From assembly GCA_027021705.1 (NCBI GenBank), contig JALUTT010000073.1, positions 1-64,000 on the forward strand: a stretch of DNA of 64,000 nucleotides. The letters run 5' to 3'. Every line of letters begins with the position of its first letter. Positions within the stretch are counted from its first letter, which is position 1. A program made the translations under genes and the position numbers. A model generated the notes under the pieces. The model was not told the origin of the DNA, searched no databases, and saw only the letters and a list, made by a program, of their open reading frames with translations. This document shows, in pieces, positions 3,555-57,486 of this stretch. Source of the DNA: Anaerolineae bacterium. Its GTDB lineage: Bacteria; Chloroflexota; Anaerolineae; S140-20.

Positions 3555-3677
3555 GTAACTGTTCACCCTCCCGCAGGTCAGGCGCGTTTCCGACTCGAAA
3601 CCGTGTTTCAAATAGCCCATCGGGGCTGAAAGCGCCCTCGACCGGTGACCTGCGGGAGGGTAGGCTGAACAGGGGAC
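3555..3677 (+). mobile_element. MITE-B copy 1 (122-bp family; degenerate right end, no clear TSD)
   Basis: Near-identical to 3735-3856, 30377-30498 (reverse) and 57365-57486; begins GTAACTGTTCA. Confidence 0.8.
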
Positions 3678-3682
3678 AACAG

Positions 3683-3711
3683 GCAGCCCTGGAACCCCGT
3701 TCCAGGGCTGC
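3683..3711. other. Perfect 13-bp hairpin between the two MITE-B copies (terminator or processing stem; no U-tract)
   Basis: GCAGCCCTGGAAC-CCC-GTTCCAGGGCTGC. Confidence 0.5.
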
Positions 3712-3734
3712 TCCAGCTTGAGTCTCACCGGGCT

Positions 3735-3856
3735 GTAGCTGTTCACCCTCCCGCAGGTTAGGCGCGTTTCCGACGCGAAACCGTGGGTCAAATAGCCCAT
3801 CGGGGCTGAAAGCGCCCTCGACCGGTAACCTGCGGGAGGGTAGGCTGAATAGGTAC
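3735..3856 (+). mobile_element. MITE-B copy 2 with perfect 8-bp TSD
   Basis: Ends GTAGCTGTTCA...TGAATAGGTAC; ACCGGGCT at 3727-3734 and 3857-3864. Confidence 0.88.
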
Positions 3857-3888
3857 ACCGGGCTATCCAAAAGGGAAAGGAAGCAGGT

Positions 3889-4131
3889 ATGGCGGTACAA
3901 GTGACCCAGGCGCAGGTCGTCTTTCGACGATGGGATACATCCAGCGGTTTGACCGAGACGGTGATCTCCATTCGCTCCCTAGAAGAGTTGTTCGCCCGCT
4001 GTCTGGAGCTGGGCGAGGGGCGGCTGGTGGACCGGGTGATCATTGATGGCGTGGATGAGGAGGGCAGCCGGCGGCGGTTGACGTTGGCCTTCCACGCCGT
4101 CACGGTCTCCTCTCCACCCGCGTCCCCCTGA
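3889..4131 (+). CDS. Small hypothetical protein (80 aa)
   Basis: RBS AAGGAAG, ATG start, protein-like composition, operonic with the downstream phosphomutase. Confidence 0.7.
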   Translation: MAVQVTQAQVVFRRWDTSSGLTETVISIRSLEELFARCLELGEGRLVDRVIIDGVDEEGSRRRLTLAFHAVTVSSPPASP

Positions 4132-4158
4132 TTGCTGCGAGAGGGAGGGAAGGACACG

Positions 4159-5592
4159 ATGAGCATACGATTTGGCACCGACGGCTGGCGGGCGGTGATC
4201 TCGGACACCTTCACCTTTGCCAACCTGCGGCTGGTGGCCCAGGCCATCGCCGACTACGTGTGGGAAGAAGCGAAGACCGATCGGCCAGAGGTTGTCGTGG
4301 GGTTCGACACCCGCTTCCTCTCCGACCGCTACGCGGCCGAGGTGGCCCGCGTGCTGGCGGGGAACGGCATCGTTGCCTGGCTGACCCGGGCCGATGCGCC
4401 CACACCGGCAGTCTCCTACGCCGTCGTCCACAAGGAGGCGGTCGCCGGGGTGATGATCACGGCCAGTCACAACGCGCCACGCTATAACGGCGTCAAGCTC
4501 AAGGCGGCCTATGGCGGCTCCGTCGGCCCGGAGGAGGCGCGTCGGGTCGAAGCCCACTTGGAAGCGATGGAGGAGGCAGCCCGGGGCCCCAACATTATGG
4601 ACTACCAGGCGGCCCTGGACCAGGGGCTGATCCGCCGCTTTGACCCCGCCTGGCCCTACTACGAGCACCTGAGCCGGCTGGTGGACCTGGACGTGATCTC
4701 GGCGGGGGAGCTGCGGGTGGTCGCCGACCCGATGTACGGTTCGGGCCGGGGGTGCATCAAGGAAATCCTGGCCCGCACCCGCTGCCACGTCTACGAGATC
4801 CGGGGGGAGATGAACCCCGGCTTTGGCGGCATCCACCCAGAGCCCATCGCCCGCTACCTCCGGGCCCTGGCCTCGGCGATCCAGGCCGGCCACGGACAGA
4901 TCGGCATCGCCACCGACGGCGACGGTGACCGGGTCGGGGCGATGGACGGGCGCGGCAACTTCGTGGACCCTCATCACATCTTCGCCCTGGCCCTTCGCTA
5001 TTTGGTGGAGGAGCGAGGCTGGCGAGGGGCGGTCGTCAAGACCGTCTCCACGACGATGATGGTGGACCGGCTGGCCCGGCAGTATGACCTCCCCCTCTAC
5101 GAGACCCCCGTCGGCTTCAACCACATCGCCGACATCATGCTGGAGAACGAGGTGCTCATCGGCGGGGAGGAGTCGGGCGGGATGAGCATCAAGGGCCACA
5201 TCCCCGAGGGAGACGGCATCCTGATGGGGCTGCTGCTGTTGGAGATCGTCGCCAAGGCGGGTGTCTCCCTTCACGAGCTGGTTGCCGACTTGCAGGCCAC
5301 GGTGGGGCCGGCCCACTACGCCCGGAGGGACCTCCGGCTGCGTCATCCCGTCACCAAACGGGAGATGGTCGCCCGCCTCACCGAAGAGGCCCCCGACCGC
5401 CTGGGGGGCGTCGAGGTGACCCAGGTGGAGACGACGGACGGGGTGAAGTACCGGCTGGCCGACGAGAGCTGGCTGCTGATCCGTCCCTCGGGCACCGAGC
5501 CGGTCCTGCGGGTCTATGCGGAAGCGCCGGAACCGGGAATGGTGAAGACGCTGCTGGCCTACGGCGAGGAGGTGGCTGCGATGGAGCGCTAG
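4159..5592 (+). CDS. Phosphoglucomutase/phosphomannomutase family protein
   Basis: FGTDGWR, TASHN, DGDGDR, GEESGG, RPSGTEP motifs. Confidence 0.95.
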
Positions 5593-5614
5593 GAGGCGCC
5601 GGTGCCGTCCTGCC

Positions 5615-5643
5615 TTGACGTTCCGGCGGGAGCGTGGTACATT
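5615..5643 (+). promoter_or_regulatory. sigma70-type promoter of the glycosylation locus
   Basis: TTGACG-17 nt-TACATT with TG extension. Confidence 0.6.
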
Positions 5644-5695
5644 TCTGTTCCATCCGGTCCCGCTAGCGGCAGAGCCTTCTCTGCCGGGAGTGCTG

Positions 5696-6652
5696 ATGAA
5701 GCTGATCATTCAGATCCCGTGCTACAACGAGGAGGCCACGCTCCCCCTCACGGTACAAGACCTCCCCCGTTCCTTGCCCGGCGTAGACGAGATCGAGTTG
5801 CTGGTGATTGATGACGGCAGCACGGACCGCACCATAGAAGTGGCCCGGGAGTTGGGCGTGGACCACATCGTGCGGCTGGGCCAGCATCGGGGGCTGGCGA
5901 CCGCTTTCCTGAAGGGGCTTGAGGCGGCCCTGGTGGCCGGGGCCGACATCATCGTGAACACTGACGCGGACAACCAGTATCGGGGGGAGGACATCGCCCG
6001 GCTGGTCGAGCCCATCCTGGCCGGCCAAGCGGACGTCGTCGTCGGCGACCGGGGTGTGGCCAGCGTGCCTACTTTCTCCCCGCTGAAGCGGTACCTGCAG
6101 CAGTTGGGAAGCTGGGTGGTGCAACAGGCGGCGGGCGTCTCCATCCCCGATGCGACCAGCGGCTTCCGAGCCTTGAGCCGGGAGGCGGCCCTGCGCACCA
6201 TCGTCCTCAGCGAGTACTCCTACACGCTGGAGACCCTGATCCAGGCGGGGGCGCGGCGGATGGCGGTGAAGTACGTGCCGGTGCGGGTGAATCCCCAGAC
6301 CCGGCGCTCCCGGCTGATGCGGAACATCCCTCACTACCTGGTCAATTCAACGGCGACGATCTTGCGCACCTACACGATGTACCGACCGCTACGGGTCTTC
6401 CTCACGGTGGGCACCCTGATGAGCCTGGGGGGGATCGCCCTGGGCGTTCGCTTCCTGTACTACTTCTTCACCAGCGGCGGGCAGGGGCACGTCCAGTCCT
6501 TGATCCTGGCGGCGATCCTCATCATCGTCGGCTTCCAGGTCTGTCTGATCGGCCTGGTGGCCGACCTGATCGGGTTCAACCGCAAGATCCTGGAGGAGAC
6601 CCTCTACCGGCTGCGACGGATGGAGTTGGAGCAACAGGAGAAGCAGGGCTAG
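5696..6652 (+). CDS. Glycosyltransferase family 2 (DPM1-like, two C-terminal TM helices)
   Basis: [30 protein letters not shown]. Confidence 0.92.
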
Positions 6653-6671
6653 AGGGAGCGAGAGAGGCGGC

Positions 6672-7463
6672 GTGGACGGGGCTGCAGTTTCTTCGGAGGG
6701 CGTAGACGAGCGACGGGCACGGGCTCTGGCGGCAGCGGAGGCGTGCATCGCCCTGCTCAAGGAGCGCTTCGGAGCCCGCCGGGTTATCCTGTTTGGGTCC
6801 CTGGCGGGGGAGGGGCCTTGGCACAGCCGGTCGGACATTGATCTGGCCGTCGAGGGGCTGGCCGACGAGGAGTTCTTCGCGGCCTATGCGGCCTGCCGGG
6901 ACCTGTTGCCCCCGGACCTGGAACTGGACCTGATCCCCCTGGAGGACGCCTATCCGGAGATGCAGGCCCGCATTTTTGGGGAGGTGCCGATGCCTGATGA
7001 CCCCGTGCAGGCGTTGAGGGCGGTGGTCGAGGATGAGCTGGTCGCCCTGGATCGGGTGACCCAGAGGATGGAAGAGCTTCTGAGCGAGCGCAGCCAACCG
7101 CCGACGTGGGTCGAGCTCTACGCCATCGCCGGGATGCTGCACGAGTTCTACAACGGCGTGGAGCGCATCTTCGAGCGCATCGCGGTCAGCCTGGGGGAGA
7201 GCCTGCCCCGGGGTGCCCATGGGCACGCCGACCTGCTGGTCCAGATGGCGACGCCTGTGGAGGGCGGGCGACCTGCCGTCATTGACGACGCCCTGCGGGC
7301 CAGGCTGGAGGAGTACCTCCGCTTTCGCCATTTCTTCCGTCACGCCTACGGCTACACGCTGGAGTGGAACCGACTGCGCTGGCAGGCCGAGCATCTGAGG
7401 GAAACCTTTGCCACTTTGCGCGAGCGGCTACGGGCCTTCTTCGACCGTTTGGAGCAGGGCTGA
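6672..7463 (+). CDS. Fused minimal nucleotidyltransferase (MNT) and HEPN RNase (type VII toxin-antitoxin-like)
   Basis: N-half LFGSLA...SDIDLAV; C-half LHEFYNGVERIF and FRHFFRHAY (RX4HXY). Confidence 0.85.
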   Translation: MDGAAVSSEGVDERRARALAAAEACIALLKERFGARRVILFGSLAGEGPWHSRSDIDLAVEGLADEEFFAAYAACRDLLPPDLELDLIPLEDAYPEMQARIFGEVPMPDDPVQALRAVVEDELVALDRVTQRMEELLSERSQPPTWVELYAIAGMLHEFYNGVERIFERIAVSLGESLPRGAHGHADLLVQMATPVEGGRPAVIDDALRARLEEYLRFRHFFRHAYGYTLEWNRLRWQAEHLRETFATLRERLRAFFDRLEQG

Positions 7464-7472
7464 GGGAGGGCT

Positions 7473-8585
7473 ATGCAGTTTGTCCTTATAGGGCCGGTCC
7501 ACCCCTATCGAGGGGGTATTGCCCATTACACTACTATGCTCTATCGGGCGTTGCAGGAAGGCGGGCATGAGGTGCTCCTCATTTCGTTTAAACGGCAGTA
7601 CCCTCAATGGCTCTTCCCTGGCCGCAGTGACAAAGATCCTAGCAGGGAACCGTTGAAAGCAGAGGGGGCGCAGTATTGGATTGACTCCTTGAACCCGATC
7701 ACGTGGTTGGTGACTTTTTTGCGAATCCGCCGTTATCGTCCCGACGCGATCATTCTTCAATGGTGGACGACATTTTGGGTACCGGCGTGGTTTGTACTAG
7801 GGGTGCTTAATCGGCTCTTTTTGCGGCGACCGCTCGTTTACATCTGCCACAACGTGCTGCCCCATGAGGCGAAATGGCAAGACCCGTGGTTGGCGCGGTT
7901 GGTGCTGCGTTGGGGGACACAGTTCATCGTCCAGTCTGAAGAAGAGAGAGCACGCCTCATTTCACTAGTGCCTAGTGCCCAGGCTGCCGTTGTTCCTCAT
8001 CCTGTATACGATATGTTCGCCGATGGGCGAATTGCCAAGAAGGAAGCTCGAGAACGGCTTGGACTACCTCAGAACGTGCCGGTATTGCTGTTCTTCGGGA
8101 TTGTCAGGGAGTACAAGGGCCTACGAGACCTCCTTAAAGCAATGCCAGAGGTTAGAGCCCAGCTAGGGGATGTGAAGCTAGTCATCGCTGGCGAATTCTG
8201 GGAGAACAAGGAATCCTACCTGGGCTTGATTGAGGAGTTGGGGATCCGCAATTCGGTGGTAATCGAGGACCGCTACATCCCGAACGAGGAGATCGCGCTC
8301 TACTTCTCGGCGGCAGACGTACTGGTTGCTCCTCATCGGCGGATGACGGGGAGCGGGGTGGTACAGATGGCGAGGGGCTTTGGGGTGCCGGTGATAGGCT
8401 TGTCTTCTTCTTACGGGGAGAAGCAAGGGCCTTCCAATAGAGCGAAAATCCTCGCGGAGGCTGTGGTAAGGTGGTTCTTGGAAGGACAAGATGGCGACCT
8501 GGAAGGTCCAGTCGAGAATGCGTGGGATAGCATGACTTGGCTGGAGGTGGTGACCACTTTTGAAAGGACGTTGGGTCCTGTTTGA
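7473..8585 (+). CDS. Glycosyltransferase family 4
   Basis: GPVHPYRGGIAHY, FFGIVREYKG, YFSAADVLV. Confidence 0.88.
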   Translation: MQFVLIGPVHPYRGGIAHYTTMLYRALQEGGHEVLLISFKRQYPQWLFPGRSDKDPSREPLKAEGAQYWIDSLNPITWLVTFLRIRRYRPDAIILQWWTTFWVPAWFVLGVLNRLFLRRPLVYICHNVLPHEAKWQDPWLARLVLRWGTQFIVQSEEERARLISLVPSAQAAVVPHPVYDMFADGRIAKKEARERLGLPQNVPVLLFFGIVREYKGLRDLLKAMPEVRAQLGDVKLVIAGEFWENKESYLGLIEELGIRNSVVIEDRYIPNEEIALYFSAADVLVAPHRRMTGSGVVQMARGFGVPVIGLSSSYGEKQGPSNRAKILAEAVVRWFLEGQDGDLEGPVENAWDSMTWLEVVTTFERTLGPV

Positions 8586-8605
8586 TAGCCAACTTGGGGG
8601 GCTGT

Positions 8606-9505
8606 ATGCCGGTTAGGTATTTGTCCATCATAATCCCCAACCTGAACTCCCCCATCATCAACCGCACATTGGCCGCGTTACGGTCCCAACGCCTCCACTC
8701 GGAAAGCCTGGAGGTCATCGTTGTAGGCCGAGACGAGATGGGGCTGGTCAGAGAAGACTCGGTGGTCCGCTTTATGGACACCGGGGAACCCGTATCTCCG
8801 GCGGTTGCTCGAAACTGGGGGATTGAGCAAGCAAAGGGCGATCTCATCTGCCTGTTGGATGCCGATTGCATTCCTTCTGAAGATTGGCTCTTCTATCTGC
8901 TGGCTCCTTACGCAGATCCGACAGTCACCATTGTGGGAGGCGGTGTCACTTTTCCTCCGTCGCCTTACTGGCGGCTCGCCGATAATCTGGCGACCTTCTA
9001 TCCATATCTATCCAGCACTCCACCTGGCGAGCGAGACCTGTTGCCGACGATCAACCTGAGCTTTCGCCGGCAAGTATGGGAGGAAGTGGGACCTTTTGAT
9101 GAACGCTATCCTGTTGGCGAAGATTCCGACTGGAGCACGAGGGCTAGGCTGGCCGGCCATCGTTTGCTTTTCGAGCCGCGTGCTGTGGTTACGCACCTTC
9201 CGACTCGCACGACGTTTAAGGACCTATGGCGGCACGCGGCCACCTTTGGGCAGTACTCCATCAAAGTAGATGAGCGATATTGGTCCGTGTTGGGGCAGCC
9301 TCTCGTCTTCAAGCATTGGGGACTGACCTTGCTGATGGCACCCGTGATGGCAGCATGGGTGACCGCTCGGGTCTTCTGGAATCCCCGTTCCTGGAAATAC
9401 GTCCATACTTTGCCTGCCGTTCTCCTGGCGAAGATCGGCTGGTGTTGGGGAGCATCCAAGCGCCTACGTGGAGAGGTCATCTGGAATGATCCATCCGCTG
9501 CCTAG
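8606..9505 (+). CDS. Glycosyltransferase family 2
   Basis: SIIIP, ARNWG, LDADC, GEDSDW; start uncertain (8582 or 8606). Confidence 0.88.
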   Translation: MPVRYLSIIIPNLNSPIINRTLAALRSQRLHSESLEVIVVGRDEMGLVREDSVVRFMDTGEPVSPAVARNWGIEQAKGDLICLLDADCIPSEDWLFYLLAPYADPTVTIVGGGVTFPPSPYWRLADNLATFYPYLSSTPPGERDLLPTINLSFRRQVWEEVGPFDERYPVGEDSDWSTRARLAGHRLLFEPRAVVTHLPTRTTFKDLWRHAATFGQYSIKVDERYWSVLGQPLVFKHWGLTLLMAPVMAAWVTARVFWNPRSWKYVHTLPAVLLAKIGWCWGASKRLRGEVIWNDPSAA

Positions 9506-10424
9506 CCAAAAGGAAAGGGAGCACAGTGGATTTTTCGGTTCCTCTCCCCCGCCTGTAGCGGTGGTTGTGTTAGCGTGGAACCATTGGGACTTGACAAAAC
9601 ATTGCCTGGAATCTCTGCGCCGTGTCTCATATCCCAATTACGAGATCATTCTGGTGGACAACGGTTCTACAGACGGTACGGCCCGCTTGGCCCATCGAGA
9701 TTTCCCCGAGGTGACCGTCCTGGCCTCGGAGCGTAACCGCGGCTTTGCAGCGGGGATCAACTTAGGACTTGGGTATGCACTGGACAAAGACTACAAATAC
9801 GTGCTTGTGCTGAACAATGATACAACGATTGAAGCGAATTTGCTGCAAACATTGGTAACCGTCGCGGAAGCTGATCATTCAATCGGAATGATCACCCCAA
9901 AGATTTGCGATGCCAATGATCCCAGTCGCCTGTGGTCTATCGGCAGCCGGCGCAGACCTCTGACACTGGCTGCGGTAGATTTTGGCGTTAACTCCATTGA
10001 TCCGACACTGGCCGAAAAACCCCGCGAGGTGGATTATGTCATAGCCTGTGCCGCGCTCATCCGCGTTGAGGCCTTGAGGCAGGTTGGGCTGTTCGATGAA
10101 AAATTTTTTATGTACTATGAAGACTTGGACCTGAGCATCCGATTTCAACAAGCGGGCTACCGCCTTTACTATGTCCCTTGGACAACCGTCCTGCATTGGG
10201 GGTCTGCCAGCACCTCAGATGTTCCGGCACGGCGTTACTATCATCTAGCACGCAGTAGCGTCTATTTCTTCGCAAAGCACGGGCAGGGAAAGTACTGGTT
10301 GCTGGTGCCATACCGTTTGGGCAGTGCAGTGAAGACCGTAGGGAAGCTGTTGATACGGGGTCGGTGGGAGGCAGCACGAGCTTACATCAAGGGGCTAGGA
10401 GAGGGCCTCCGGGACCTGCGGTGA
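9486..10424 (+). CDS. Glycosyltransferase family 2 (WbbL/rhamnosyltransferase-like)
   Basis: VDNGSTD, NRGFAAGIN, LNND, FDEKFFMYYEDLD; start uncertain. Confidence 0.88.
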   Translation: MIHPLPSQKEREHSGFFGSSPPPVAVVVLAWNHWDLTKHCLESLRRVSYPNYEIILVDNGSTDGTARLAHRDFPEVTVLASERNRGFAAGINLGLGYALDKDYKYVLVLNNDTTIEANLLQTLVTVAEADHSIGMITPKICDANDPSRLWSIGSRRRPLTLAAVDFGVNSIDPTLAEKPREVDYVIACAALIRVEALRQVGLFDEKFFMYYEDLDLSIRFQQAGYRLYYVPWTTVLHWGSASTSDVPARRYYHLARSSVYFFAKHGQGKYWLLVPYRLGSAVKTVGKLLIRGRWEAARAYIKGLGEGLRDLR

Positions 10425-10668
10425 GGGGAGGTGGCAATCCGTGCTTCAGCGTTGGATACACACAAGAGCATCGGTCCGGCAGGCCGAATTGGAAAGGATA
10501 AAGACCTTCTTGAAACAAGTTCGGATCATCGCGGTGACTGTTCCACAACTGGTGAAAATCCCAAGTGGTGGGGCACAGACCTGATGTTCTCCCCCTCCAC
10601 AGCCCGTATGTGGGGCGGGCACCGCCTTCCGACCCCGTTTTCGCTACCCCAGTGGGGTGATCTAGGGA

Positions 10669-11499: not shown

Positions 11500-11606
11500 C
11501 CCAAGGGCGGGTTTCCCGAATTTTTGTATCGGTTTCGACATCTCTATCCAGAGTATGTGCCCGAGGAACCCGGGTCTCTGCTTTAGCGGAAGTTCTGTAG
11601 TGACTG

Positions 11607-12539: not shown

Positions 12540-12546
12540 CATCACT

Positions 12547-13272: not shown

Positions 13273-13283
13273 CTCCCCTCCAG

Positions 13284-27570: not shown

Positions 27571-27571
27571 C

Positions 27572-29058: not shown

Positions 29059-29541
29059 GGAGGACTCTCCAAGCCCGACTCCCCGCCCCCGAGAAGGTCG
29101 GCCTTGCAAAGGCCTCCTACCCGGTGGGGGGCTTCTACGCGCCTGCCTCTGTAGGAGGGCCTTCCAAGCCCGACTCCCCGCCCCCGAGGTCGGCCTTGCA
29201 AAGGCCTCCTACACGGTGGGGGGCTTCGTACCTGCCTCTGTAGAGGGCTTTCCAAGCCCGATTCCCCGCCCCCGAGAAGGTCGGCCTTGCAAAGGCCTCC
29301 TACACGGTGGGGGGCTTCTACGCGCCTGCCTCTGTAGGAGGGCCTTCCAAGCCCGACTCCCCGCCCCCGAGGTCGGCCTTGCAAAGGCCTCCTACACGGT
29401 GGGGGGCTTCTACGTACCTGCCTCTGTAGGAGGGCCTTCCAAGCCCGACTCCCCGCCCCCGAGGTCGGCCTTGCAAGGGCCTCCTACCCGGTGGGGGGCT
29501 TCTACGTACCTGCCTCTGTAGGAGGGCTCTCCAAGCCCGAC
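29059..29541. repeat. Tandem REPIN array: five inverted GTAG-type REP pairs plus a half unit, ~90-bp period
   Basis: GTAGGAGGGCCTTCCAAGCCCGAC...GTCGGCCTTGCAAAGGCCTCCTAC repeated with near-identical linkers. Confidence 0.9.
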
Positions 29542-30252: not shown

Positions 30253-30376
30253 CCAGCACCTCCTTTACCGAGCCCCCTTGCAGGTTCGGCAGTGGGGGAA
30301 GCTCTGAACTTCACCTGTAGGTGGAGGGTGAGCCCAACGGTCCAGAAGCCTGTGGGTGGGCCGGAAGCGACACCCG

Positions 30377-30498
30377 GTATCTATTCAGCCTACCCTCCCT
30401 CAGGTCACCGGTCGAGGGCGCTTTCAGCCCCGATGGGCTAATTGAAACACGGCCTCGCGTCGGAAACGCGCCTAACCTGCGGGAGGGTGAACAGTTGC
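30377..30498 (-). mobile_element. MITE-B copy 3 with perfect 8-bp TSD
   Basis: Reverse complement of 3735-3856; GACACCCG at 30369-30376 and 30499-30506. Confidence 0.88.
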
Positions 30499-30519
30499 GA
30501 CACCCGTAAGACAACGCTG

Positions 30520-47382: not shown

Positions 47383-47421
47383 TCTTCCCGCTTCCTCGCC
47401 CAGGTTGGCGAAGCAGCGTCC

Positions 47422-49488: not shown

Positions 49489-50017
49489 TGGTGTACCTCC
49501 TGAGTCGGATAAGCGGGGGAGGCCCGCCCAGTACGCCCTCGGTTGTTCCCGATTCTCATCCTATGGTCATCACCCCAAGTGATCCTCCCGGCCGGTACGT
49601 GGGGCTTTTGTCAATGTGCCCAGAGTCAAACCTCTCCGGTCGTTCGATCACCTCCTTTCCGACAAAAAATAAGCCCCACCATCCACGCCGTGCGTGGCCT
49701 TGGTGTGGCTCGATCTTCCCCGGCCGACCATGACCTGCCTCCCGTCAGGGTAGGGGAGCGGTGAGGGCAGCGATGCCGGAAACCGTGATCTTATGGAAGG
49801 CGATTTGCGCGATGATTTGGAAGAGAGTTGTCCTCGGAGGATAGTGTGGCGCAGAAGTGTTGGAAAACGGTAAGGAGAGTGTTGGAAATTGGTTAGAATC
49901 CCCATTGGTTACGGAGGGCCTGTGGCCGTGGCAGAAACGCTACCGGCCCCGGAATCCTCGATGCCGGGGCCGGCCCCAGACAGCACTCAACCAATCCACC
50001 AATGATGCCGCACCGCC

Positions 50018-53000
50018 TTACGGCCACCAGCGGCCTACATCTTGGATGGCCTGGAAGGTCCCGACAATGGCCTCTGGTCCGCCCAGGGCGTAGATAAGGG
50101 GGGCGAGGGCGCTCAGGTCGGAGAGGAGGTCCCGGCGGGTGCGCCGGGCGAGTGTGTGGAGCGTCTCCCGCCAGAGATCGTGGACGGCGTTTCGGTTCCG
50201 CTTTGCCCAGTTGGCCAAAGGGGAGGCCAGTGCCGAGAGCATCTTTCCCCGGGCACGGGTGTTCTCAACGTCCCGGGCGATCCTCAAAGTCTCCTTCAGG
50301 TCTTCTCTCGGGAGCATCTGCGGCAGGGAGGAGGCCAACTCTTCCAGTGCTTCGGCCTGTCTCTCAGCGTCCTTCTCCTCTCGCAGCGCGTCCAGAGCGT
50401 TCCGCAGAGCGTGTTCCTGCTCCGGCTCCGGCAGGTGGGGGATCAGACGGGCCAGAACCTGAACCCGCCGGGTCGGCCGGACGATCTCCTCCGTGGCCAT
50501 CATAGCCTCTAGGAGTGCCTGCCTCCGTAGCGCTTCCGGCGGATGGAACAAGGCCAGTTCCCGAAGTTCCTCGGCTCGCGTGGCCGCATCGGAGATCCCT
50601 CGGATCGTGGAGAGGGCCTCCAGCCAGCGGCCTTGTCCTGCCATAAGGCGTGCAATGGCCCTCAACACGCGATCGAACTGCCTCCTGGACCCATTGCCCC
50701 GAAGCGTTGGGGCAGCCCTCGCGACTTCCCATAGCATGGTCTCCCACGGGGAAAAGGCCGGTTCCTCTCCCATTTCCCAGAGTATTTGCTGCCGTAGGGC
50801 CGCAGGAAGGTAGGAGAGGTGAAGCAGTTCCCACACCACAGAGGCTTGGATCCAAGGGTCCTCAATCCCTCGTGCCGCTTCCCACGCTTCCCATAGGGCC
50901 TCTTCCCGTTGCGGAGGGGGCAGGTGGGCGGCCAACACCCGCAGAGTCTGGGCTCGCAGACTCTTGTCCTCGATCTCCCCCGCCGCCGACAGAGCTTTCT
51001 GCTGGACACCTTCTCGCAGCGTCGCCTCCGGGAAGTTGTGAGAGAGCAATCTTAGCAGGGCGTCAGCTTGCTGCCATGGGTCCTCGATCTGCGAGGCCGT
51101 TTCCACAGCTTCCTGCAGGGCCTCCTGTTGTCGTGGCTTCGACTCCTGCTGTTGTGACTCCGACTCCTGTTGTCGTGGCTCTGAGAGGTGGAGAGCCAGT
51201 TGCGCCAGCAGGTTGACCCGTAGGTAGGGGTCCTGGACGTTCCGGGTGGCTTGCCAGGCGTTCTGAAGGGCCTTTTCGCGATCCTGGGCTGAGAGATGGG
51301 GGGCAATGTCGGCCAGAGTCTGTGCCCGCCGGTACTCGTTGGTGATTTCGCGGGCTGCGGCCAGGGCCTCCTGGAGGGCCGCCCCCCGCTCCCCCCCCGC
51401 CAAGTGACGGGCCAGCTCGATCAACGTCCTGGCTTGTGCACCCCTATCCCCGATGCCCTGGACGGTTGCCAGAGCCTCTTGGAGAGCCCGCTTGCGGGGG
51501 GATGGCGGCAAGCGAGGAGCCAGTTCCAGGAGCACCTCCACCCGTGTCCGGGGGTCTCGGACCTCCCGGGCCGCCGTCAACGCCTCCCGGAGGACTTGTT
51601 GCCGTGCCGATTTCGACAAGTAGTAGGAGGTAGCCAGGTGCAAGAGCGTGCGGGCCCGAACCGGCGCGTCCCGAATCTGCCGCGCTGCGACCAGCGCTTC
51701 CGTGATGTAACCCTGTCTCGCCAGGCGCCGGACTTGGGTCTGGGGTAGCTCGACAGGCATCGTCCTTCTCCGAAGCACCGAGGCGGCTTTCTGGATCGCT
51801 TGCAAAGCTTGCTCTTCCCACTTCGGTGGGAGGTGATGGCTCAGCGCCAGGAGGGTCTCTATCCGAAGATGGGCATCTTGAATGCGCTGCGCTGCTGCCA
51901 AGGCCTCTAGACTCCGGCCCTGCTGCGCCAGACCCAATGCCCGGTCCCTGAACTCCTCATCCTGCGGGTTGCCCTCGCGGAGATCCCGGGCGGCTGCCAG
52001 CGCTTCCTCCAGGACAGGGGCGTACTGGGATGCCGGCAGATACTCGATCAGGCTGAGCAGGGCTCCGGCGCGGATCCGAGCATCCCGGATCGTTCGCGCC
52101 ACGTCCAACGCCTCGCGCAGCAGCGTCTCCGGGAGGTAGGGGGCCAGGGAGGCCAGGGCCTGAGCCCGTTGCTCCTCCCGCTCGATTCCCCGGGCGGCTG
52201 TCAGCGCTTCCCGGACGGCCCGTTCTCGCTGCTCGTCCGATACGTAAGAGCAGGAAGCAAGAGCCAGAAAAGCCTCGACCTGCTCTTTGGCATCGCGGGT
52301 ATTCCGAGCTACGGCCCAGGCTCGTGCTAATAAGCGCTGCTTCCACGTTTCGTTCGGCAGGTGGGGAACCAGATCCAACAGGGCTGCTACCTGATCTGGG
52401 CCTTTTCGGATACTCCTCACAGCCCTGCTCGCTTCGTGCCAGTCTCCCTGCTCGGCCCAGTGTCGGGCCAGCATCTTCAACACGTTATCCTCTAAGCTCT
52501 CTGTCTCCTGTACGGCCGCCTGTGCAACTTGTACCGCCTTGGCTCGCAACGCTTCCGACAGGTGAGGAAACAGGTCTGCAAGCGTCCGGATCCGTATCTC
52601 CACTCTCTCGATGTTGCTGGCTATGCTCAGGGCCTCTTCCTGCAGTGCTTCCGGCGAATGGGGAGCCAGGGTTCTGAGGATTGCGGCCTTCCATTCCTCC
52701 TCCTCAATCGCCCTCACCGTGGATAGGGCCTCCTGCCAGAGGGATTCCCGTTCCGACTCGGTTAGAGCGGGACAGGTTGCGATCTCCCGAAGTGCCTGGA
52801 TCCGATCCTCGGGCCATAGAATCCCTTGGGTGGCTTTCCGGGCTTTCTTCACGGCTTCTCCCTGTTGCCTATCTGGCAGGTGGGGAATCAGCTTTACGAG
52901 CGCTGACACGCGCTCTCGTTCGTCGGCAATCCGCGATGTTGCTTCCAACACCTCCTGCAGAGTTTGCTCCCGCTCCGGTTCGGGCATATAAGGAGCTAGG

Positions 53001-55687
53001 CCGGCGAGGGCCTTGATCCGGTCATCCCTGTCCTCAATCTGCCTGGCTATGGTCCATGCCCCTTGGAGTAAGGTCTCGTCCCTCTCGAGAGAAGGAGCCA
53101 GCCCGGCGAGGGCTTCTGCCCGGACCTCGGTCCATTCGATCTGCTGAACGACCGCTAGTGCCTTTGAGAAGAGGTCTTGGGACAGATGGGGGGCCAGCTT
53201 CACCAGTGCCTCCGCCCGTTGCCCCGCGTCCGGCGCCTGCCGGGCGTAGGCCAGCCCTTGGGCCGGAGGCCACTCCTTTTTCTCCACCAGTGCCGCCAGC
53301 AGTTGTGGGGGGATGTTCTTGGCCAGGCTGTTGAGGGAGGCAGTGATGAGGGCGTAGCGGCATTGGAGGGCGATGTCCTCACCCCTCTCCCCGGCCCCCT
53401 CCCCTCTCCCACCCGGTGAGAGAGGGGAGGGGGTGGCGGCGGCCGCTGTCGGGGGTTCTTCCACCAGCCCCCAGGCTCGCGCCACGTCGGTCAGGAAGCC
53501 GTCGGTGTCTCCCACGGCCTCCTTAGTCGCGTACCAGGCGTTCTCGTGCCGGCGGCGCTGGTGGGTCCGCTTCTGGCCCGGAAGTTGGCCAGGCCGCTCC
53601 TTCGGCCCAGGGCAGGTGTAGGGCACCTCCTCTTCATGCACCCATTCCACCCGCAACAGGCGATGCAGGTCCTCCCCCCGGCCCGCCCCTTCCAAGTGGG
53701 CCGCCAGGTGGCGCAGGCCGTAGCCGCCGTCCAGGTCCCGCCTCCCCGGCTCCCGCAGCCCCGGCAGCCCCGCCTCTAGCCCGCTCCAGGCCGCCAGGTA
53801 CCGGTCGGCGATGCGGGCGTGGGCCTGCTGCGTGGCCGCCGCCAGCTCCTCCGTCAGGCTCCGCTCCACCTCCGTCAGCCGCTCTAGGTCGGCCCGCCCG
53901 TCCAGGAACTCCCGCAGGCTGGCGTGGTAGAGGCGGTAGCGGCGGTCCCCTGCGGTGCCCTCCACGGCCAGGAAGGGCCGCCAGGCCTCCCGCAGTAACC
54001 GCTCCAGATCAGGCCGCACCTCCACCCCGGCCAGGGTGCAGAGCCGAGGGAAGGGGAGGGCCTCTTGGGCGGCGGCCAGGGTGCTCAGCAGAGGGAGGTA
54101 GTCGGTGTACCATCGGGGATCATCCCGCCACCGACTCCAGTACTGGGCGTAGTACTGCCACACGCCCTCCGGCAGGGTCGCCAGGTCCAGGGGGGAGCGC
54201 TCCCCGCGCTCGATCTCGCCCACCACGTAGTGCAGGTAGATCCACACCCCCCGGCATTTCTCCAGCAGCGCGGCCACGAACTGCTCCCGCGCATACCCCT
54301 GCTCGGCCAGGGCCCGGGCCACCCCCGACCAGGTGGCGGCCGCCTCCAGGTAGGCCCGCATATCGGCCCGGTTCTTCTCGCTCTGGGCTTCCAGGCGAAA
54401 GACCCGGCGCGGCCCCTCCACCCGCAGCGTCACCGCCACCGGCCGCTGGGAGATGATGAGGTAGACGCCTTGGGGGAGCACGCGCGGCAAGCCCAGGACG
54501 TTCTGGCCCGGCGGGGTTCCGGCCTCGTCCAGGCCGTCCACCACCAGGACGATTTGCTCTCCGGGCCGCACCTCGTCCCGCTTGCGGGCCGCCTCGAAGA
54601 GCAGGTTCAGGAGGAAGTGGGGGCGGGCTGCCGAGCCGGGCAGCACCCCCTCGGCCTGATGGGGGTCGAGCAGCCAGGCCCGCACCAATTGGGCGGCCAG
54701 GTTGCGTAGGCCGGTGGCGTCGTCACCGGGGGCCAGTTCCACGAAGTGGTGGATGTACCCCTGGGTCTTCACCAGGTGGGCCAGGAAGGTGGTCTTGCCC
54801 AACCCGGCGGCGGCTTCCAGGACGAACAGACCCCGGTCGTTATCCCGCAGGAAGGCGTCCACCTCGGCGGTCAGCCACTCCCGGCCCACGAAGCGGTCCA
54901 GCTTCACCCGCTCGAAGACGGACCAAGGGGGGATGTAGGCGTCCCGCAGCCGCTCGTAATCACCGACGAAGACCCGGTTGTGGTCGCCGGTGATGAGGAT
55001 GCTATGGATGGCCTGGCCGCCGATGGAGATGCTGCACTCACCGGAGGGTTCCTCGGGCTTCTCCGGCGGGTGCAGTTCCAGAGGCTCCGGGCACAGGGCC
55101 TGCACCGTCTCGGCGGGGATGGCGTAGGCGTAGCGTACTCTGGGAGCATCCTCTTCCTCAGGACGCCTCATATCGCGGTAACGGGTGATCATCCCGACCA
55201 CGCGCCCGGTGACGATGTCCAGCACCGGCGCGCCGCTGAGGCCCCTGTCCACTTCAGGTCCCTGGACCTGGAGTAGGCGGATGGGCCAGCCTTGCACCGG
55301 CACCAGCCCACCGATCTTCGCCTGGGGCCAGCGGGCGAGCGCAGGGCCGTCCGCCGGGTAGCCCAGGGCCTGGTAGGGATGGCCGTTGCTCCCGTGGGCC
55401 GGGCCCAAGGTGGCGGGGTGTGTTCCTTCGGGCAACACCCCAACCACCCGCAGGAAGGCCACATCCTTCTCCGGTTGCCAGCCCTTGGGGAGGACCTCGG
55501 CCTCCGCCGGTTCACCTCCAACGTGGAAGGCAAGCCGCACCCGCTTGCCCGGGCAGGCTCCGGCGGCCTCGACCACGTGCACGCAGGTCACCACCAGGTC
55601 CGGGCGCACGAGAAAGCCGGTGCCTATCGTCCGGCCCCTGGCGTTTTCGACGCGGACAACGCAAGCCTCCAGATCCGTTGCTTCCAC
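50018..55687 (-). CDS. Trypsin-like protease + STAND/NACHT-like NTPase + long helical-repeat protein (bacterial NLR-like)
   Basis: GTGF, TCVHVV, DVAFL, GLSGAPV; Walker A AAAGLGKT, Walker B VLVVDGLDE, YHAS; many EALAAAR.I...RA.AL..LAP.LP repeats. Confidence 0.88.
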   Translation of the reverse strand: MEATDLEACVVRVENARGRTIGTGFLVRPDLVVTCVHVVEAAGACPGKRVRLAFHVGGEPAEAEVLPKGWQPEKDVAFLRVVGVLPEGTHPATLGPAHGSNGHPYQALGYPADGPALARWPQAKIGGLVPVQGWPIRLLQVQGPEVDRGLSGAPVLDIVTGRVVGMITRYRDMRRPEEEDAPRVRYAYAIPAETVQALCPEPLELHPPEKPEEPSGECSISIGGQAIHSILITGDHNRVFVGDYERLRDAYIPPWSVFERVKLDRFVGREWLTAEVDAFLRDNDRGLFVLEAAAGLGKTTFLAHLVKTQGYIHHFVELAPGDDATGLRNLAAQLVRAWLLDPHQAEGVLPGSAARPHFLLNLLFEAARKRDEVRPGEQIVLVVDGLDEAGTPPGQNVLGLPRVLPQGVYLIISQRPVAVTLRVEGPRRVFRLEAQSEKNRADMRAYLEAAATWSGVARALAEQGYAREQFVAALLEKCRGVWIYLHYVVGEIERGERSPLDLATLPEGVWQYYAQYWSRWRDDPRWYTDYLPLLSTLAAAQEALPFPRLCTLAGVEVRPDLERLLREAWRPFLAVEGTAGDRRYRLYHASLREFLDGRADLERLTEVERSLTEELAAATQQAHARIADRYLAAWSGLEAGLPGLREPGRRDLDGGYGLRHLAAHLEGAGRGEDLHRLLRVEWVHEEEVPYTCPGPKERPGQLPGQKRTHQRRRHENAWYATKEAVGDTDGFLTDVARAWGLVEEPPTAAAATPSPLSPGGRGEGAGERGEDIALQCRYALITASLNSLAKNIPPQLLAALVEKKEWPPAQGLAYARQAPDAGQRAEALVKLAPHLSQDLFSKALAVVQQIEWTEVRAEALAGLAPSLERDETLLQGAWTIARQIEDRDDRIKALAGLAPYMPEPEREQTLQEVLEATSRIADERERVSALVKLIPHLPDRQQGEAVKKARKATQGILWPEDRIQALREIATCPALTESERESLWQEALSTVRAIEEEEWKAAILRTLAPHSPEALQEEALSIASNIERVEIRIRTLADLFPHLSEALRAKAVQVAQAAVQETESLEDNVLKMLARHWAEQGDWHEASRAVRSIRKGPDQVAALLDLVPHLPNETWKQRLLARAWAVARNTRDAKEQVEAFLALASCSYVSDEQRERAVREALTAARGIEREEQRAQALASLAPYLPETLLREALDVARTIRDARIRAGALLSLIEYLPASQYAPVLEEALAAARDLREGNPQDEEFRDRALGLAQQGRSLEALAAAQRIQDAHLRIETLLALSHHLPPKWEEQALQAIQKAASVLRRRTMPVELPQTQVRRLARQGYITEALVAARQIRDAPVRARTLLHLATSYYLSKSARQQVLREALTAAREVRDPRTRVEVLLELAPRLPPSPRKRALQEALATVQGIGDRGAQARTLIELARHLAGGERGAALQEALAAAREITNEYRRAQTLADIAPHLSAQDREKALQNAWQATRNVQDPYLRVNLLAQLALHLSEPRQQESESQQQESKPRQQEALQEAVETASQIEDPWQQADALLRLLSHNFPEATLREGVQQKALSAAGEIEDKSLRAQTLRVLAAHLPPPQREEALWEAWEAARGIEDPWIQASVVWELLHLSYLPAALRQQILWEMGEEPAFSPWETMLWEVARAAPTLRGNGSRRQFDRVLRAIARLMAGQGRWLEALSTIRGISDAATRAEELRELALFHPPEALRRQALLEAMMATEEIVRPTRRVQVLARLIPHLPEPEQEHALRNALDALREEKDAERQAEALEELASSLPQMLPREDLKETLRIARDVENTRARGKMLSALASPLANWAKRNRNAVHDLWRETLHTLARRTRRDLLSDLSALAPLIYALGGPEAIVGTFQAIQDVGRWWP

Positions 55688-55913
55688 CGCTCAACCCTAT
55701 CCCTTGTTTTGTCCGTGCTGTCTCAAAAGCATTGATGAGCTTATGCCGCATTTGCGCAATGATCGGCTCCTCATCTGCTCCAGATCATCGGAGAACACCG
55801 CGCCTTTTGGGGGAGGGAGGAGGATGTGGGCAACTAAGCTGACGGACAAGGGGCTCTTTCCAGGAATGCCTTCCCGCGCATCCTGGATGGCGCCATCACT
55901 CCTGTCATCGGCC

Positions 55914-55942
55914 ATTGTATGACAACTGGTCAGAAAAGTCAA
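55914..55942 (-). promoter_or_regulatory. Promoter of the protease-STAND gene
   Basis: Minus-strand TTGACT-17 nt-TACAAT. Confidence 0.7.
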
Positions 55943-56028
55943 GGAATTTACGCAACAACACAGTACAAATCCCCCAAGATACGCGATGCGCAATACGTGT
56001 CACACAATGCGACGCGACACGATTTCCC

Positions 56029-56183
56029 CGGTGATTACCCATATCTTTGGAGATAGGGAAACGAGCCGTCCACGAATGGGGCACGAATACACGAATCAAG
56101 GACCGCCTCATTCGTGCATTTGTGAGAAATTCGTGGACGGCCTGCTACGGACCACTCTCTCGCTCCCTTGTGGGTAATCACCG
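56029..56183 (+). mobile_element. MITE-A copy 4 (155 bp)
   Basis: Perfect 13-bp TIR CGGTGATTACCCA; perfect 9-bp TSD CGATTTCCC at 56020-56028 and 56184-56192. Confidence 0.93.
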
Positions 56184-56194
56184 CGATTTCCCTC

Positions 56195-56223
56195 TTGACA
56201 CAGAACAAATGTTCTGGTATCAT
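56195..56223 (+). promoter_or_regulatory. Promoter with a LexA/SOS box in the -35/-10 spacer
   Basis: TTGACA-17 nt-TATCAT; CAGAACA-AA-TGTTCTG (GAAC-N4-GTTC) at 56201-56216. Confidence 0.82.
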
Positions 56224-56285
56224 GTAGCCAGCCCCTTCCACCGCGTGACAGGCAACCCGCCATACGCATCGCCCGAGGTGTTCCG

Positions 56286-57311
56286 ATGGCCCGCAAGACC
56301 AACCGTCAGCTCCTAGAGCTCCAGGCCGATCGCATCGAGATGGTCCTGGCCCGGCACAGGGCTCCCGCTCGCGTCGCCGGCGGTGTCGTCACCCCCCGCT
56401 GGGTCCGCTTCCACCTGCTCCCCGCCCTGGGGACCTCCCTGGCCCGCATCAAGCGCCTCTCCGAGGAGCTGGCTCTCGCCCTGGGTGCCCCCGCCTGCCG
56501 CATCAGTCGCCGGGGAGAGCAGTTGGCCCTGGAGGTTCCCCGTCCCGACCCCCAGCCGGTGCGGCTGCTCCCTTTGCTCCGCTCCCTGGCCCCCCTCCCC
56601 TTTGGCACGGCCCTGCTGGGGCTGGCCGAGGATGGCGCTCCCCTGCTGCTCCGCTTCCCCTCCCCCGACGTGACCCACGTCCTGGTGGCCGGCACCACGG
56701 GGTCGGGCAAGACGGCCCTCCTGCGGACCATCATCCTCTCCCTGGCCCTGAGCCACCGGCCCCGCGAGTGGGGCTTCGTCTTGGTAGATCCGAAGGGCCG
56801 GGCCTTCGAGGGGCTGGCGGGGCTGCCCCACCTGGTGAGGCCCATCATTCGGGAGGTGGACGACGCCCAGAGCGTGCTGGAGGAGGTGGTCGAGCTGATG
56901 GAGCGGCGAGATCGGGAAGGGGTGGCGGAGCCCCGGCTGCTGGTCGTGGTGGACGAACTGGCGGACCTGCTGCTGGTGGGGAGACGGGGAGGGAGGGGAC
57001 AGCCATCGGTGTTGCCCCTCCTGGTGCGGCTGGCCCAGCGAGGACGGGAGGCCGGGGTACACCTGCTGGTGGCGACCCAGAAACCGTCGGCGGCGGTGGT
57101 GGGGACGCTGTTGCGGGCCAACTTCCCGGTGCGGCTGGTAGGACGGGTGGCAAGCTCGGAGGATGCGCGGGTGGCGGCGGGGCGCGGGGGCACCGGGGCG
57201 GAGCGGTTGCTGGGACGGGGGGACTTCCTGGCGGTGGCAGGCGGGCAGGTGGTGCGCTTCCAGGCAGCCTACGTAGGGCAGGACGAGATTCGCCGGTTCG
57301 GAGGTGCGTGA
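56286..57311 (+). CDS. FtsK/SpoIIIE-domain ATPase, motor only (no TM anchor or gamma domain)
   Basis: HVLVAGTTGSGKT, LVDPKG, VVVDELADL, RLAQRGREAGVHLLVATQKP, AERLLGRGD. Confidence 0.9.
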   Translation: MARKTNRQLLELQADRIEMVLARHRAPARVAGGVVTPRWVRFHLLPALGTSLARIKRLSEELALALGAPACRISRRGEQLALEVPRPDPQPVRLLPLLRSLAPLPFGTALLGLAEDGAPLLLRFPSPDVTHVLVAGTTGSGKTALLRTIILSLALSHRPREWGFVLVDPKGRAFEGLAGLPHLVRPIIREVDDAQSVLEEVVELMERRDREGVAEPRLLVVVDELADLLLVGRRGGRGQPSVLPLLVRLAQRGREAGVHLLVATQKPSAAVVGTLLRANFPVRLVGRVASSEDARVAAGRGGTGAERLLGRGDFLAVAGGQVVRFQAAYVGQDEIRRFGGA

Positions 57312-57364
57312 TGAGCATCCTGGGCACGCCACGCAATGCGCCTGGCGCGACTGGAATAGGAGGC

Positions 57365-57486
57365 GTAACTGTTCACCCTCCCGCAGGCTGGGCGCGTTTC
57401 CGACGCGAAACCGTGCTTCAAATAGCCCATCGGGGCTGCAAGCGCCCTCGACCGGTGACCTGCGGGAGGGTAGGCTGAATAGATAC
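57365..57486 (+). mobile_element. MITE-B copy 4, inserted into a ribosome-binding site
   Basis: GTAACTGTTCA...TGAATAGATAC; TAGGAGGC at 57357-57364 and GAGGAGGC at 57487-57494. Confidence 0.87.

What the first reader, a model, noticed from the sequence alone, without database searches (positions are those of the whole stretch)
3555..57486. A 122-bp MITE carrying a solitary CRISPR-repeat-like 38-mer
Seen: copies at 3555-3677, 3735-3856, 30377-30498 and 57365-57486 have imperfect TIRs (GTAACTGTTCA / TGAATAGATAC), 8-bp TSDs in three copies, and an inner stem CCCTCCCGCAGG...CCTGCGGGAGGG. The loop contains GTCGAGGGCGCTTTCAGCCCCGATGGGCTAATTGAAAC (30411-30448; reverse-complement variant at 3605-3642), with a GTC start, an AGCCC/GGGCT hairpin and a terminal ATTGAAAC. 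Known: a short hairpin followed by ATTGAAAC is typical of Cas6-processed type I/III repeats, and solitary repeat units can act as RNA anti-CRISPRs. Inference: the MITE may have captured a host repeat and now spreads potential Cas6 sites, decoys or array seeds. The GAAAC end is decayed in copies 2 and 4, so the likeness could be vestigial or chance.
Basis: partly seen in the sequence, partly recalled or inferred. Interest (0 to 1): 0.72.

Follow-up and report, generated by a model that had tools for sequence, protein, structure and literature searches.

The report
Ordinary jumping-DNA repeat, not CRISPR-derived
The four repeats are copies of a small non-coding mobile element that litters this uncultured Chloroflexota genome, and its likeness to a CRISPR repeat rests on two private mutations in one copy, so it is ordinary selfish DNA.

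Summary
The window has four copies of a 122-bp element with imperfect terminal inverted repeats, a 12-bp GC-rich inner stem and 8-bp target-site duplications. The genome holds 179 near-full copies, and 86 of 179 have flanks matching at 6 or more of 8 positions (control 1 of 179).

The CRISPR reading does not hold.
The family consensus ends ATT(T/G)GAAGC.
- None of the six CRISPR repeat families of this genome matches the element better than random 122-mers of the genome do (48% score as well).
- No copy meets the published solitary-repeat criteria.
- No array with the core was found in 185,579 species genomes.

The element is a MITE derived from single-ORF IS66-family (ISBst12-group) insertion sequences. 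Such ISs in class relatives end in GTAACTGCTCAG(G/C)C and make 8-bp duplications, as published for ISDge4. Related MITEs with the same ends and stem but different loops (57-153 bp in total) occur in 19 of 301 class genomes.

No cognate transposase is in this assembly. One copy elsewhere in the genome splits a cas1 gene. I rate it a new member of a known kind, of low interest.

The parts
3555..3677 (+). MITE copy 1. Its right end has diverged (GAACAGGGGAC) and it has no recognisable TSD.
   Evidence: flanks match 4/8
3735..3856 (+). MITE copy 2, with perfect 8-bp TSD ACCGGGCT at 3727-3734 and 3857-3864
30377..30498 (-). MITE copy 3 in inverted orientation, with perfect 8-bp TSD GACACCCG at 30369-30376 and 30499-30506
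57365..57486 (+). MITE copy 4, with TSD TAGGAGGC / GAGGAGGC (7 of 8) at 57357-57364 and 57487-57494. The right TSD copy doubles as the GGAGG ribosome-binding stretch of the ORF starting at 57501.
30411..30448 (+). It is the only one of 179 copies that ends ATTGAAAC.
   Evidence: The Rfam hit to CRISPR-DR2 scores 15.9 bits against a gathering score of 37, E 3.4.
3605..3642 (-). The same 38-mer region in copy 1, which reads ...GGGCTATTTGAAAC

Best explanation
The 122-bp repeat is a non-autonomous transposon (MITE) derived from single-ORF IS66-family insertion sequences of the ISBst12 group.

Inferred mechanism: an ISBst12-type DDE transposase, supplied in trans, recognises the terminal GTAACTG(T/C)TCA... 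inverted repeats. It inserts the element with an 8-bp target duplication at sites with no strong consensus. Selection then leaves copies mostly between genes.

The 12-bp GC-rich stem next to the TIRs is the conserved hallmark of a MITE superfamily spread through the class (Anaerolineae by the label of earlier scan notes, not tested here). It also occurs in at least one other family of the phylum. The sequence between the stem arms is variable filler.

The CRISPR-repeat look of the 38-mer is a coincidence. A short GC hairpin sits next to a TTGAA-containing stretch, and two private substitutions in copy 3 turned that stretch into ATTGAAAC.

Shown here: copies, TSDs, shared ends with the ISs, and absence of repeat similarity. 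Inferred: trans-mobilisation and its present activity.
For: Copy number and duplications:
- 179 near-full copies, mean 93.7% identical to the consensus.
- 8-bp TSD: 47 of 179 perfect and 86 of 179 at 6 or more of 8, against 1 of 179 in the control. No other TSD length gives a signal.

Parent IS family:
- In class relatives, elements of about 1.4-1.6 kb carrying one IS66-family transposase end in GTAACTGCTCAG(G/C)C on both sides. They have perfect 8-bp TSDs: L108 GATTCCCG, L111 ACGGAAAC, L133 TAACTGCC.
- The L108 ORF matches DDE_Tnp_IS66 at 1.9e-50, plus zf-IS66.
- PMC12898284 (passages read) reports ISDge4 of the ISBst12 group with TIRs GTGACTACTCAGCA / GTAACTGCTCAGCA and an 8-bp direct repeat.

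Superfamily:
- The terminal 20-mer occurs in 19 of 301 class genomes, with 0 hits for the reversed control. One of them, G072, has 139 copies.
- It occurs in 3 of 401 phylum genomes, G000 included.
- Those elements share TIR and stem but have unrelated loops and total lengths of 57-153 bp.

Against a CRISPR origin:
- ATTGAAAC is in 1 of 179 copies.
- Host repeats match no better than chance.
- 0 of 3223 blastn-short HSPs reach 90% identity and 90% coverage. The best bit score is 24.3, against the SRUFinder cut-off of 41.1 (criteria from PMC10651486 methods passages).
- No array-spaced core and no 22-mer core in the genome-contig collection. None in viral contigs.
- The 38-mer is no better conserved than the rest of the loop (4.9% against 3.4% non-consensus), while the stem arms are (1.4-2.0%).
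Against: - No cognate transposase is in this assembly. The best tblastn hit is 21% identity, E 0.019, to a classical IS66 fragment on a 1.4-kb contig. No long element with both MITE ends was found.
- G072, with 139 copies, also lacks one at E 1e-20.
- Genomes with the MITE 20-mer (19) and with the transposase (31) overlap in only 3 of 301, and about 2 are expected by chance. These are draft MAGs, in which multicopy ISs are often unassembled, so this is weak either way.
- None of the 30 sampled IS loci carries the CCCTCCCGCAGG stem next to its TIR. The direct progenitor has therefore not been seen.
- No empty site or presence/absence polymorphism was observed.
- The single-test likeness of the 38-mer to repeat R6 (p about 0.002) equals that between some genuine host repeat families. 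An ancient capture that has since decayed beyond recognition cannot be excluded.
Confidence: 0.88

Rival explanations
1. The MITE captured a CRISPR repeat and now disperses a solitary repeat unit. Once transcribed, that unit would be bound or cut by a host Cas6 and act as decoy, RNA anti-CRISPR or array seed.
For: - The genome has five Cas6-type genes (PF10040) and at least six repeat families, four of them 37-nt repeats with (A/G)TTGA(A/G)A(C/T)-type ends.
- The consensus 38-mer starts GTC and has a 5-bp hairpin.
- Single-test global alignment to repeat R6 gives 22-23 of 38, p 0.002 (consensus) or 0.0006 (copy 3).
- 6-10 of 179 copies have TTGAAAC or GAAAC.
Against: - ATTGAAAC is private to 1 of 179 copies.
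- In the fair test over windows, strands and repeats, the element scores 6 and 48% of random 122-mers score as high.
- It fails the SRUFinder criteria: 0 HSPs at 90%/90%, best 24.3 bits against 41.1.
- No promoter-like site lies in the element.
- It is not on viral contigs, and no array with this core was found anywhere searched.
- The 38-mer shows no extra conservation.
- On the 38-mer strand the minimum-energy fold prefers the competing GGGC/GCCC hairpin.
Confidence: 0.04
2. The element is a MITE by origin, but its long hairpin has been co-opted by the host as an RNA or DNA structural signal, such as an mRNA stabiliser, attenuator or protein-binding site. That would explain why the stem is kept.
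For: - It is a very stable fold as RNA: -50 to -60 kcal/mol, z -3.1 to -4.7.
- The stem arms diverge 2-3 times less than the loop.
- By a crude measure, copies lie mostly outside long open frames: 26% against 55% for random sites.
- Copy 4 abuts a ribosome-binding site.
Against: - Stem conservation is equally explained by transposase or transposition constraints on the master copies.
- Only 1 compensatory change is seen in 2144 stem cells.
- The inner folds are not conserved across the superfamily.
- There is no U-tract and no terminator-like site.
- Insertion sites show no consensus, and one copy simply breaks cas1.
Confidence: 0.07
3. The element is a REP/REPIN-type palindromic repeat moved by a RAYT (Y1) transposase rather than by a DDE transposase.
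For: It is a hairpin-forming, intergenic, high-copy repeat. An earlier scan note reports REP-like repeats elsewhere in this genome (unchecked).
Against: It has clear 8-bp TSDs and TIRs that match the ends of IS66-family elements. Y1-transposase elements make no TSD.
Confidence: 0.01

Closest known systems
ISBst12-group insertion sequences of the IS66 family (for example ISDge4 of Deinococcus geothermalis, PMC12898284)
   Same: The terminal repeats begin GTAACTGCTCAGC-like, with 13 of 14 identical to the published ISDge4 TIR. The target duplication is 8 bp. Relatives in the same class carry full elements with these ends.
   Different: It has no transposase and is only 122 bp long. It carries a 12-bp GC-rich inverted repeat (CCCTCCCGCAGG) directly inside the TIRs, which none of the 30 sampled IS loci has. 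It reaches about 180 copies per genome.
Classical bacterial MITEs (Correia/NEMIS, RUP, ERIC, Nezha; names recalled, review PMC10969869 consulted by term search only)
   Same: It is small, non-coding and bounded by TIRs. It is flanked by TSDs, forms a hairpin, is mostly intergenic, and is present at high copy number with subfamilies.
   Different: Its parent family is different: IS66/ISBst12. No paper in the searched library holds both 'ISBst12' and 'MITEs'. The superfamily keeps ends and stem but swaps the loop, from 57 to 153 bp total length.
Solitary repeat units / RNA anti-CRISPRs (Racrs; Camara-Wilpert et al. 2023, PMC10651486)
   Same: It is a solitary, non-arrayed sequence with a short hairpin. 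In one copy it has a repeat-like 3' end, in a host that has Cas6 genes.
   Different: SRUs are defined by at least 90% identity and coverage to a known repeat. They lie on phages or plasmids, often behind a promoter. Here identity to host repeats is about 58-65%, the element is a chromosomal MITE without a promoter-like site, and the handle is absent from the family consensus.

Membership tests
Bacterial MITE | Short non-coding element with terminal inverted repeats | tested here: met
   122 bp. The TIRs match 9 of 11, and 23 of 28 when the stem is included and a 5-nt indel allowed.
Bacterial MITE | Target-site duplication of fixed length | tested here: met
   8 bp. 47 of 179 are perfect and 86 of 179 match at 6 or more of 8, against 1 of 179 in the control.
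Bacterial MITE | Many dispersed copies | tested here: met
   179 near-full copies plus 31 partial HSPs in 5.19 Mb
Bacterial MITE | Autonomous partner with the same ends in the same genome | tested here: not met
   None in this 95%-complete draft. Partners are found only in other genomes of the class.
IS66 family, ISBst12 group (as non-autonomous derivative) | Ends beginning GTAA and matching ISBst12-group TIRs | tested here: met
   GTAACTGTTCA / GTATCTATTCAGCC here, against GTAACTGCTCAG(G/C)C in L107-L135 and GTAACTGCTCAGCA in ISDge4
IS66 family, ISBst12 group (as non-autonomous derivative) | 8-bp direct repeats on insertion | tested here: met
   for the MITE; for the ISs; for ISDge4
IS66 family, ISBst12 group (as non-autonomous derivative) | Mobilised by a single-ORF IS66-type DDE transposase | not testable with these tools
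   The transposase family of the look-alike ISs was confirmed by Pfam. Mobilisation itself needs an experiment.
CRISPR repeat / solitary repeat unit (Racr) | At least 90% identity over at least 90% of a known CRISPR repeat (SRUFinder) | tested here: not met
   Tested against the six host repeat families only. 0 of 3223 HSPs qualify, and the best bit score is 24.3. No general repeat library was available. The Rfam CRISPR-DR models lack power here, because the true host array also gave no hit.
CRISPR repeat / solitary repeat unit (Racr) | Carried by a phage or plasmid, typically behind a promoter | tested here: not met
   The copies are chromosomal and intergenic. No promoter-like site was found, and there are 0 hits in IMG/VR contigs.
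Cas6-processed type I/III repeat | Conserved 8-nt 3' handle (ATTGAAAC-type) after a hairpin | tested here: not met
   The hairpin is present in the consensus, but the handle is in 1 of 179 copies. The consensus reads ATT(T/G)GAAGC.
Cas6-processed type I/III repeat | Occurs as an array somewhere (source of the capture) | tested here: not met
   No array-spaced core in the genome-contig collection, no core at all outside this genome, and no array among the 78 metagenome loci. These were exact-match searches, so diverged arrays would be missed.
REP/REPIN (RAYT-mobilised) | No target-site duplication; associated Y1 transposase | tested here: not met
   Clear 8-bp TSDs

The most novel reading that the evidence does not exclude
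A minority of copies (copy 3 with ATTGAAAC, and 6-10 of 179 with TTGAAAC or GAAAC) have drifted by chance into a hairpin-plus-handle shape. One of the five Cas6 paralogues might then cleave or bind them when they are co-transcribed. The MITE would thus accidentally seed Cas6 substrates across the transcriptome.

More broadly, the superfamily may be a minimal TIR-plus-stem hairpin chassis whose loop is repeatedly replaced.
Probability: 0.05. Interest if true: 0.55.

Novelty: new member of a known kind. Interest (0 to 1): 0.2.

Why it matters
It removes a tempting but unfounded link between a MITE and CRISPR. That guards against annotating such hairpin repeats as orphan repeats or RNA anti-CRISPRs.

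On the positive side, it assigns an abundant repeat of uncultured Chloroflexota to the little-studied ISBst12 group of IS66 elements. It defines the conserved ends and stem of that MITE superfamily. It also shows one copy knocking out a cas1 gene. These points are useful for annotating MAGs and for anyone studying IS66-family transposition, but they are not surprising.

Tried and rejected
- **Rfam.** Copies 1-2 gave no CRISPR family at E up to 10. Copy 3 gave CRISPR-DR2 at 15.9 bits against a gathering score of 37. The genuine host array R6 also gave nothing at E up to 1, so this test has no power and I do not lean on it.
- **Autonomous partner in G000.** I paired terminal matches 135-6000 bp apart, looked at stray terminal matches, searched Pfam IS66 and ran tblastn with the L108 transposase. 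None was found.
- **Inverted loop.** The idea that the G000 loop is an inverted version of the loops of relatives was rejected. Forward and reverse scores are both at noise level, except forward to G072_L087 (32 against a null of 18 +/- 3.1) and, weakly, to G157_L089.
- **Conserved inner fold across the superfamily.** Not seen.
- **Sequencing runs.** No RNA holder is listed. Logan contigs of X1-X4 break at the MITEs and none bridges them, so neither an empty site nor expression could be assessed.
- **Co-occurrence of MITE and transposase across 301 genomes.** The overlap is 3, about what chance gives.
- **Earlier-findings look-up by sequence.** It returned nothing.
- **Not used.** Structure prediction, complex prediction and the large protein searches, since the element is non-coding.
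Full report
**1. The observation**

They align over 122 bp with 89% mean column identity.
- The inner stem pair CCCTCCCGCAGG / CCTGCGGGAGGG is exact in three copies, against none in 100 shuffles. It has one mismatch in copy 3.
- The flanks show 8-bp duplications for copy 2 (ACCGGGCT, 8/8), copy 3 (GACACCCG, 8/8) and copy 4 (7/8), but not for copy 1.

The window is contig C73 of a 5.19-Mb, 66% G+C draft genome of 183 contigs. It is 94.9% complete with 4.5% contamination.
- blastn of copy 1 finds 210 HSPs, of which 179 are near-full copies.
- Their consensus is 122 bp, and copies are on average 93.7% identical to it.
- Comparing the k bases on either side gives a signal only at k = 8. There, 47 of 179 are perfect and mean identity is 59%, against about 25-33% at other k.
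- 86 of 179 match at 6 or more of 8, against 1 of 179 for an offset control.
- The duplicated octamers have no strong consensus.

So this is a real, transposed, high-copy MITE.

**2. The CRISPR-like 38-mer**

- The forward-strand word GTTTCAAT occurs in 1 of 179 copies.
- The consensus is GCTTC(A/C)AAT, with 105 A and 71 C. On the 38-mer strand this reads ATT(T/G)GAAGC.
- T at the position that makes GAAAC occurs in 10 of 179 copies.

Copies 2 and 4 are therefore not decayed. Copy 4 carries the ancestral form, and copy 3 acquired the motif by two substitutions. The GTC start and the AGCCC/GGGCT hairpin are in the consensus. On the 38-mer strand, however, the minimum-energy fold uses the competing GGGC/GCCC pairing.

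**3. Comparison with real repeats**

A k-mer spacing scan found arrays of at least six repeat families in the genome, labelled R1-R6. Four are 37-nt repeats ending (A/G)TTGA(A/G)A(C/T), and five Cas6-type genes are present.
- Local alignment of each repeat to the MITE consensus gives scores reached by 10-91% of random 122-mers of the genome.
- Global alignment of the pre-chosen 38-mer gives 22-23 of 38 identities to R6, with p 0.002 for the consensus and 0.0006 for copy 3. This is about the level seen between some genuine host repeat families.
- That test ignores the free choice of window, strand and repeat. When each repeat is fitted anywhere in the 122 bp on either strand, the element scores 6 (copy 3 scores 7). 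Among 1500 random 122-mers, 48% reach 6 and 28% reach 7.
- With SRUFinder-like settings, 0 of 3223 HSPs reach 90% identity and 90% coverage. The best bit score is 24.3, against the published cut-off of 41.1 (criteria read in the methods passages of PMC10651486).
- Exact-pattern scans found no array-spaced core and no 22-nt core in one genome for each of 185,579 species, and none in IMG/VR.
- The same scan found 78 loci in JGI metagenomes.
- The Rfam results are uninformative, because the true R6 array also gave no hit.
- The 38-mer is not better conserved than the rest of the loop (4.9% against 3.4% non-consensus sites), whereas the stem arms are (1.4-2.0%).

**4. What the element is**

The ends (GTAA...) and the 8-bp duplication pointed to the IS66 family, a lead I recalled and then tested.
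- This genome has only a fragment of a classical IS66 element, on a 1.4-kb contig. It has no relative of the transposase described next.
- In other genomes of the class, a single-ORF IS66-family transposase sits in elements of about 1.4-1.6 kb. Its Pfam matches are DDE_Tnp_IS66 at 1.9e-50, zf-IS66 and DUF6444.
- Both ends of those elements read GTAACTGCTCAG(G/C)C. They have perfect 8-bp duplications: L108 at 1199-2786 with GATTCCCG, L111 with ACGGAAAC and L133 with TAACTGCC.
- The MITE's ends are GTAACTGTTCACC and, reverse-complemented, GTATCTATTCAGCC. In relatives' MITEs they read GTAACTGCTCACC / GTAACTGCTCAGCC.
- A paper on Deinococcus geothermalis (PMC12898284, passages read) reports ISDge4. 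It belongs to the ISBst12 group, has a single 449-aa transposase, TIRs GTGACTACTCAGCA / GTAACTGCTCAGCA and an 8-bp direct repeat.

The MITE is therefore best read as a non-autonomous derivative of ISBst12-group elements.

**5. The superfamily**

The 20-mer spanning the right stem arm and TIR has the following distribution:

| Sample | Genomes with a match | Notes |
|---|---|---|
| Class | 19 of 301 | At most 1 mismatch; reversed control 0; G072 has 139 copies |
| Phylum | 3 of 401, G000 included | G302, from another family, has 53 copies |
| Family relatives | 0 of 3 | Searched with the whole element |

The elements fetched from 17 of these genomes keep TIR and stem.
- The sequence between the stem arms ranges from a tetraloop-sized remnant (57-62 bp elements) through the common 120-122 bp form to 141 and 153 bp.
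- It is mostly unalignable between genomes.
- The G000 loop is significantly similar only to one G072 element, in the forward orientation. That match covers the ...CCATCGG...TTCAA... part, and the G072 sequence there reads CTTGAACC.
- No inner fold is shared.

G000 itself has loop-deleted derivatives. The conserved, presumably functional, part is thus the TIR plus stem, and the loop, 38-mer included, is variable filler.

**6. Context and effects**

- The four window copies lie between long ORFs.
- Genome-wide, reconstructed pre-insertion sites are spanned by a long high-GC3 open frame in 26% of 172 cases, against 55% of 1500 random sites. This is a crude proxy.
- No promoter-like or terminator-like site lies in the element.
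- As RNA it would form a -50 to -60 kcal/mol hairpin.
- On contig C104 a copy splits cas1 of the cas6-cas1-cas2-array locus that carries repeat R6. The N-terminal 57 codons and the C-terminal 267 codons match Pfam Cas1 positions 1-53 and 63-282, in different frames. This fits undirected insertion and is the opposite of a CRISPR-friendly role.
- Contigs from another study's runs reach from the flanks into copy 1 and copy 2, so both insertions are shared with a slightly diverged strain. No bridging contig or empty site was seen.

**7. Weak points**

- The cognate transposase is missing from this assembly and from G072.
- The stem is absent from all 30 sampled IS loci.
- Co-occurrence of MITE and transposase across genomes is at chance (3 of 301).
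- All CRISPR-database tests were limited to host repeats, Rfam and exact-pattern scans. An ancient capture that has since decayed cannot be formally excluded.

**8. Verdict**

This is a genuine MITE and a new member of a known kind: an ISBst12/IS66-derived MITE superfamily of Chloroflexota. No paper in the searched library holds both 'ISBst12' and 'MITEs', and the MITE review PMC10969869 mentions neither IS66 nor CRISPR by term search. The CRISPR-repeat reading is not supported.

The taxon label (uncultured Anaerolineae, Chloroflexota) comes from earlier scan notes and was not tested here.

Noticed in passing
G000 contig C104 = L168:1278-3791 (MITE copy at about 2416-2533): A copy of this MITE splits the cas1 gene of a cas6-cas1-cas2 locus next to the R6 array (226-763). 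The N-part at 2535-2705 and the C-part at 1622-2422 are in different frames. A truncated MITE left half also lies upstream of cas6, at about 3719.
   Followed up: yes
G000 contigs C54 (~12008), C86 (~1729), C104 (~199), C106 (~149), C121 (~1349): A near-identical stretch of about 230 bp, ending ...CGACGACTTGACAAATTTAGAAGATG(CT), abuts a truncated terminal repeat in five CRISPR arrays of three different repeat families. The cut is always 10-12 nt from the ATTGAAAC-type end. It could be a shared trailer, a recombination product or a repeat-targeting insertion. In C86 it carries an extra insert of about 170 bp.
   Followed up: partly
window 1-821 and 29079-29513: These are tandem arrays: a unit of about 87 bp containing GGGGATTCCCC...GATGGGCCGGGGGA in about 10 copies at the window start, and a second 5-copy array at 29.1-29.5 kb. 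Related arrays lie on C117:1-425, C88 and C49. They are not CRISPR-like, since they have no spacers.
   Followed up: no
window 3682-3712: A perfect 13-bp hairpin (GCAGCCCTGGAAC CCC GTTCCAGGGCTGC) lies in the 57-bp spacer between MITE copies 1 and 2. No T-tract follows it.
   Followed up: no
G000 C12:15582, C120:70471-70543, C81:9114-9172, C71:41514-41571: These are loop-deleted derivatives of the MITE. They keep TIRs and stem and lack the 38-mer region.
   Followed up: partly
L139, L141-L146 (G072): G072 carries 141-bp and 153-bp MITE variants with the same ends and stem but entirely different loops. It also has 120-122-bp and 62-bp forms, so several loop types coexist in one genome.
   Followed up: partly
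L154 (G126:C33): This element has exactly the G000-type end variants (GTAACTGTTCA ... GAATAGATAC) but a loop of the G072/G092 type. The ends and the loop therefore have different histories.
   Followed up: no
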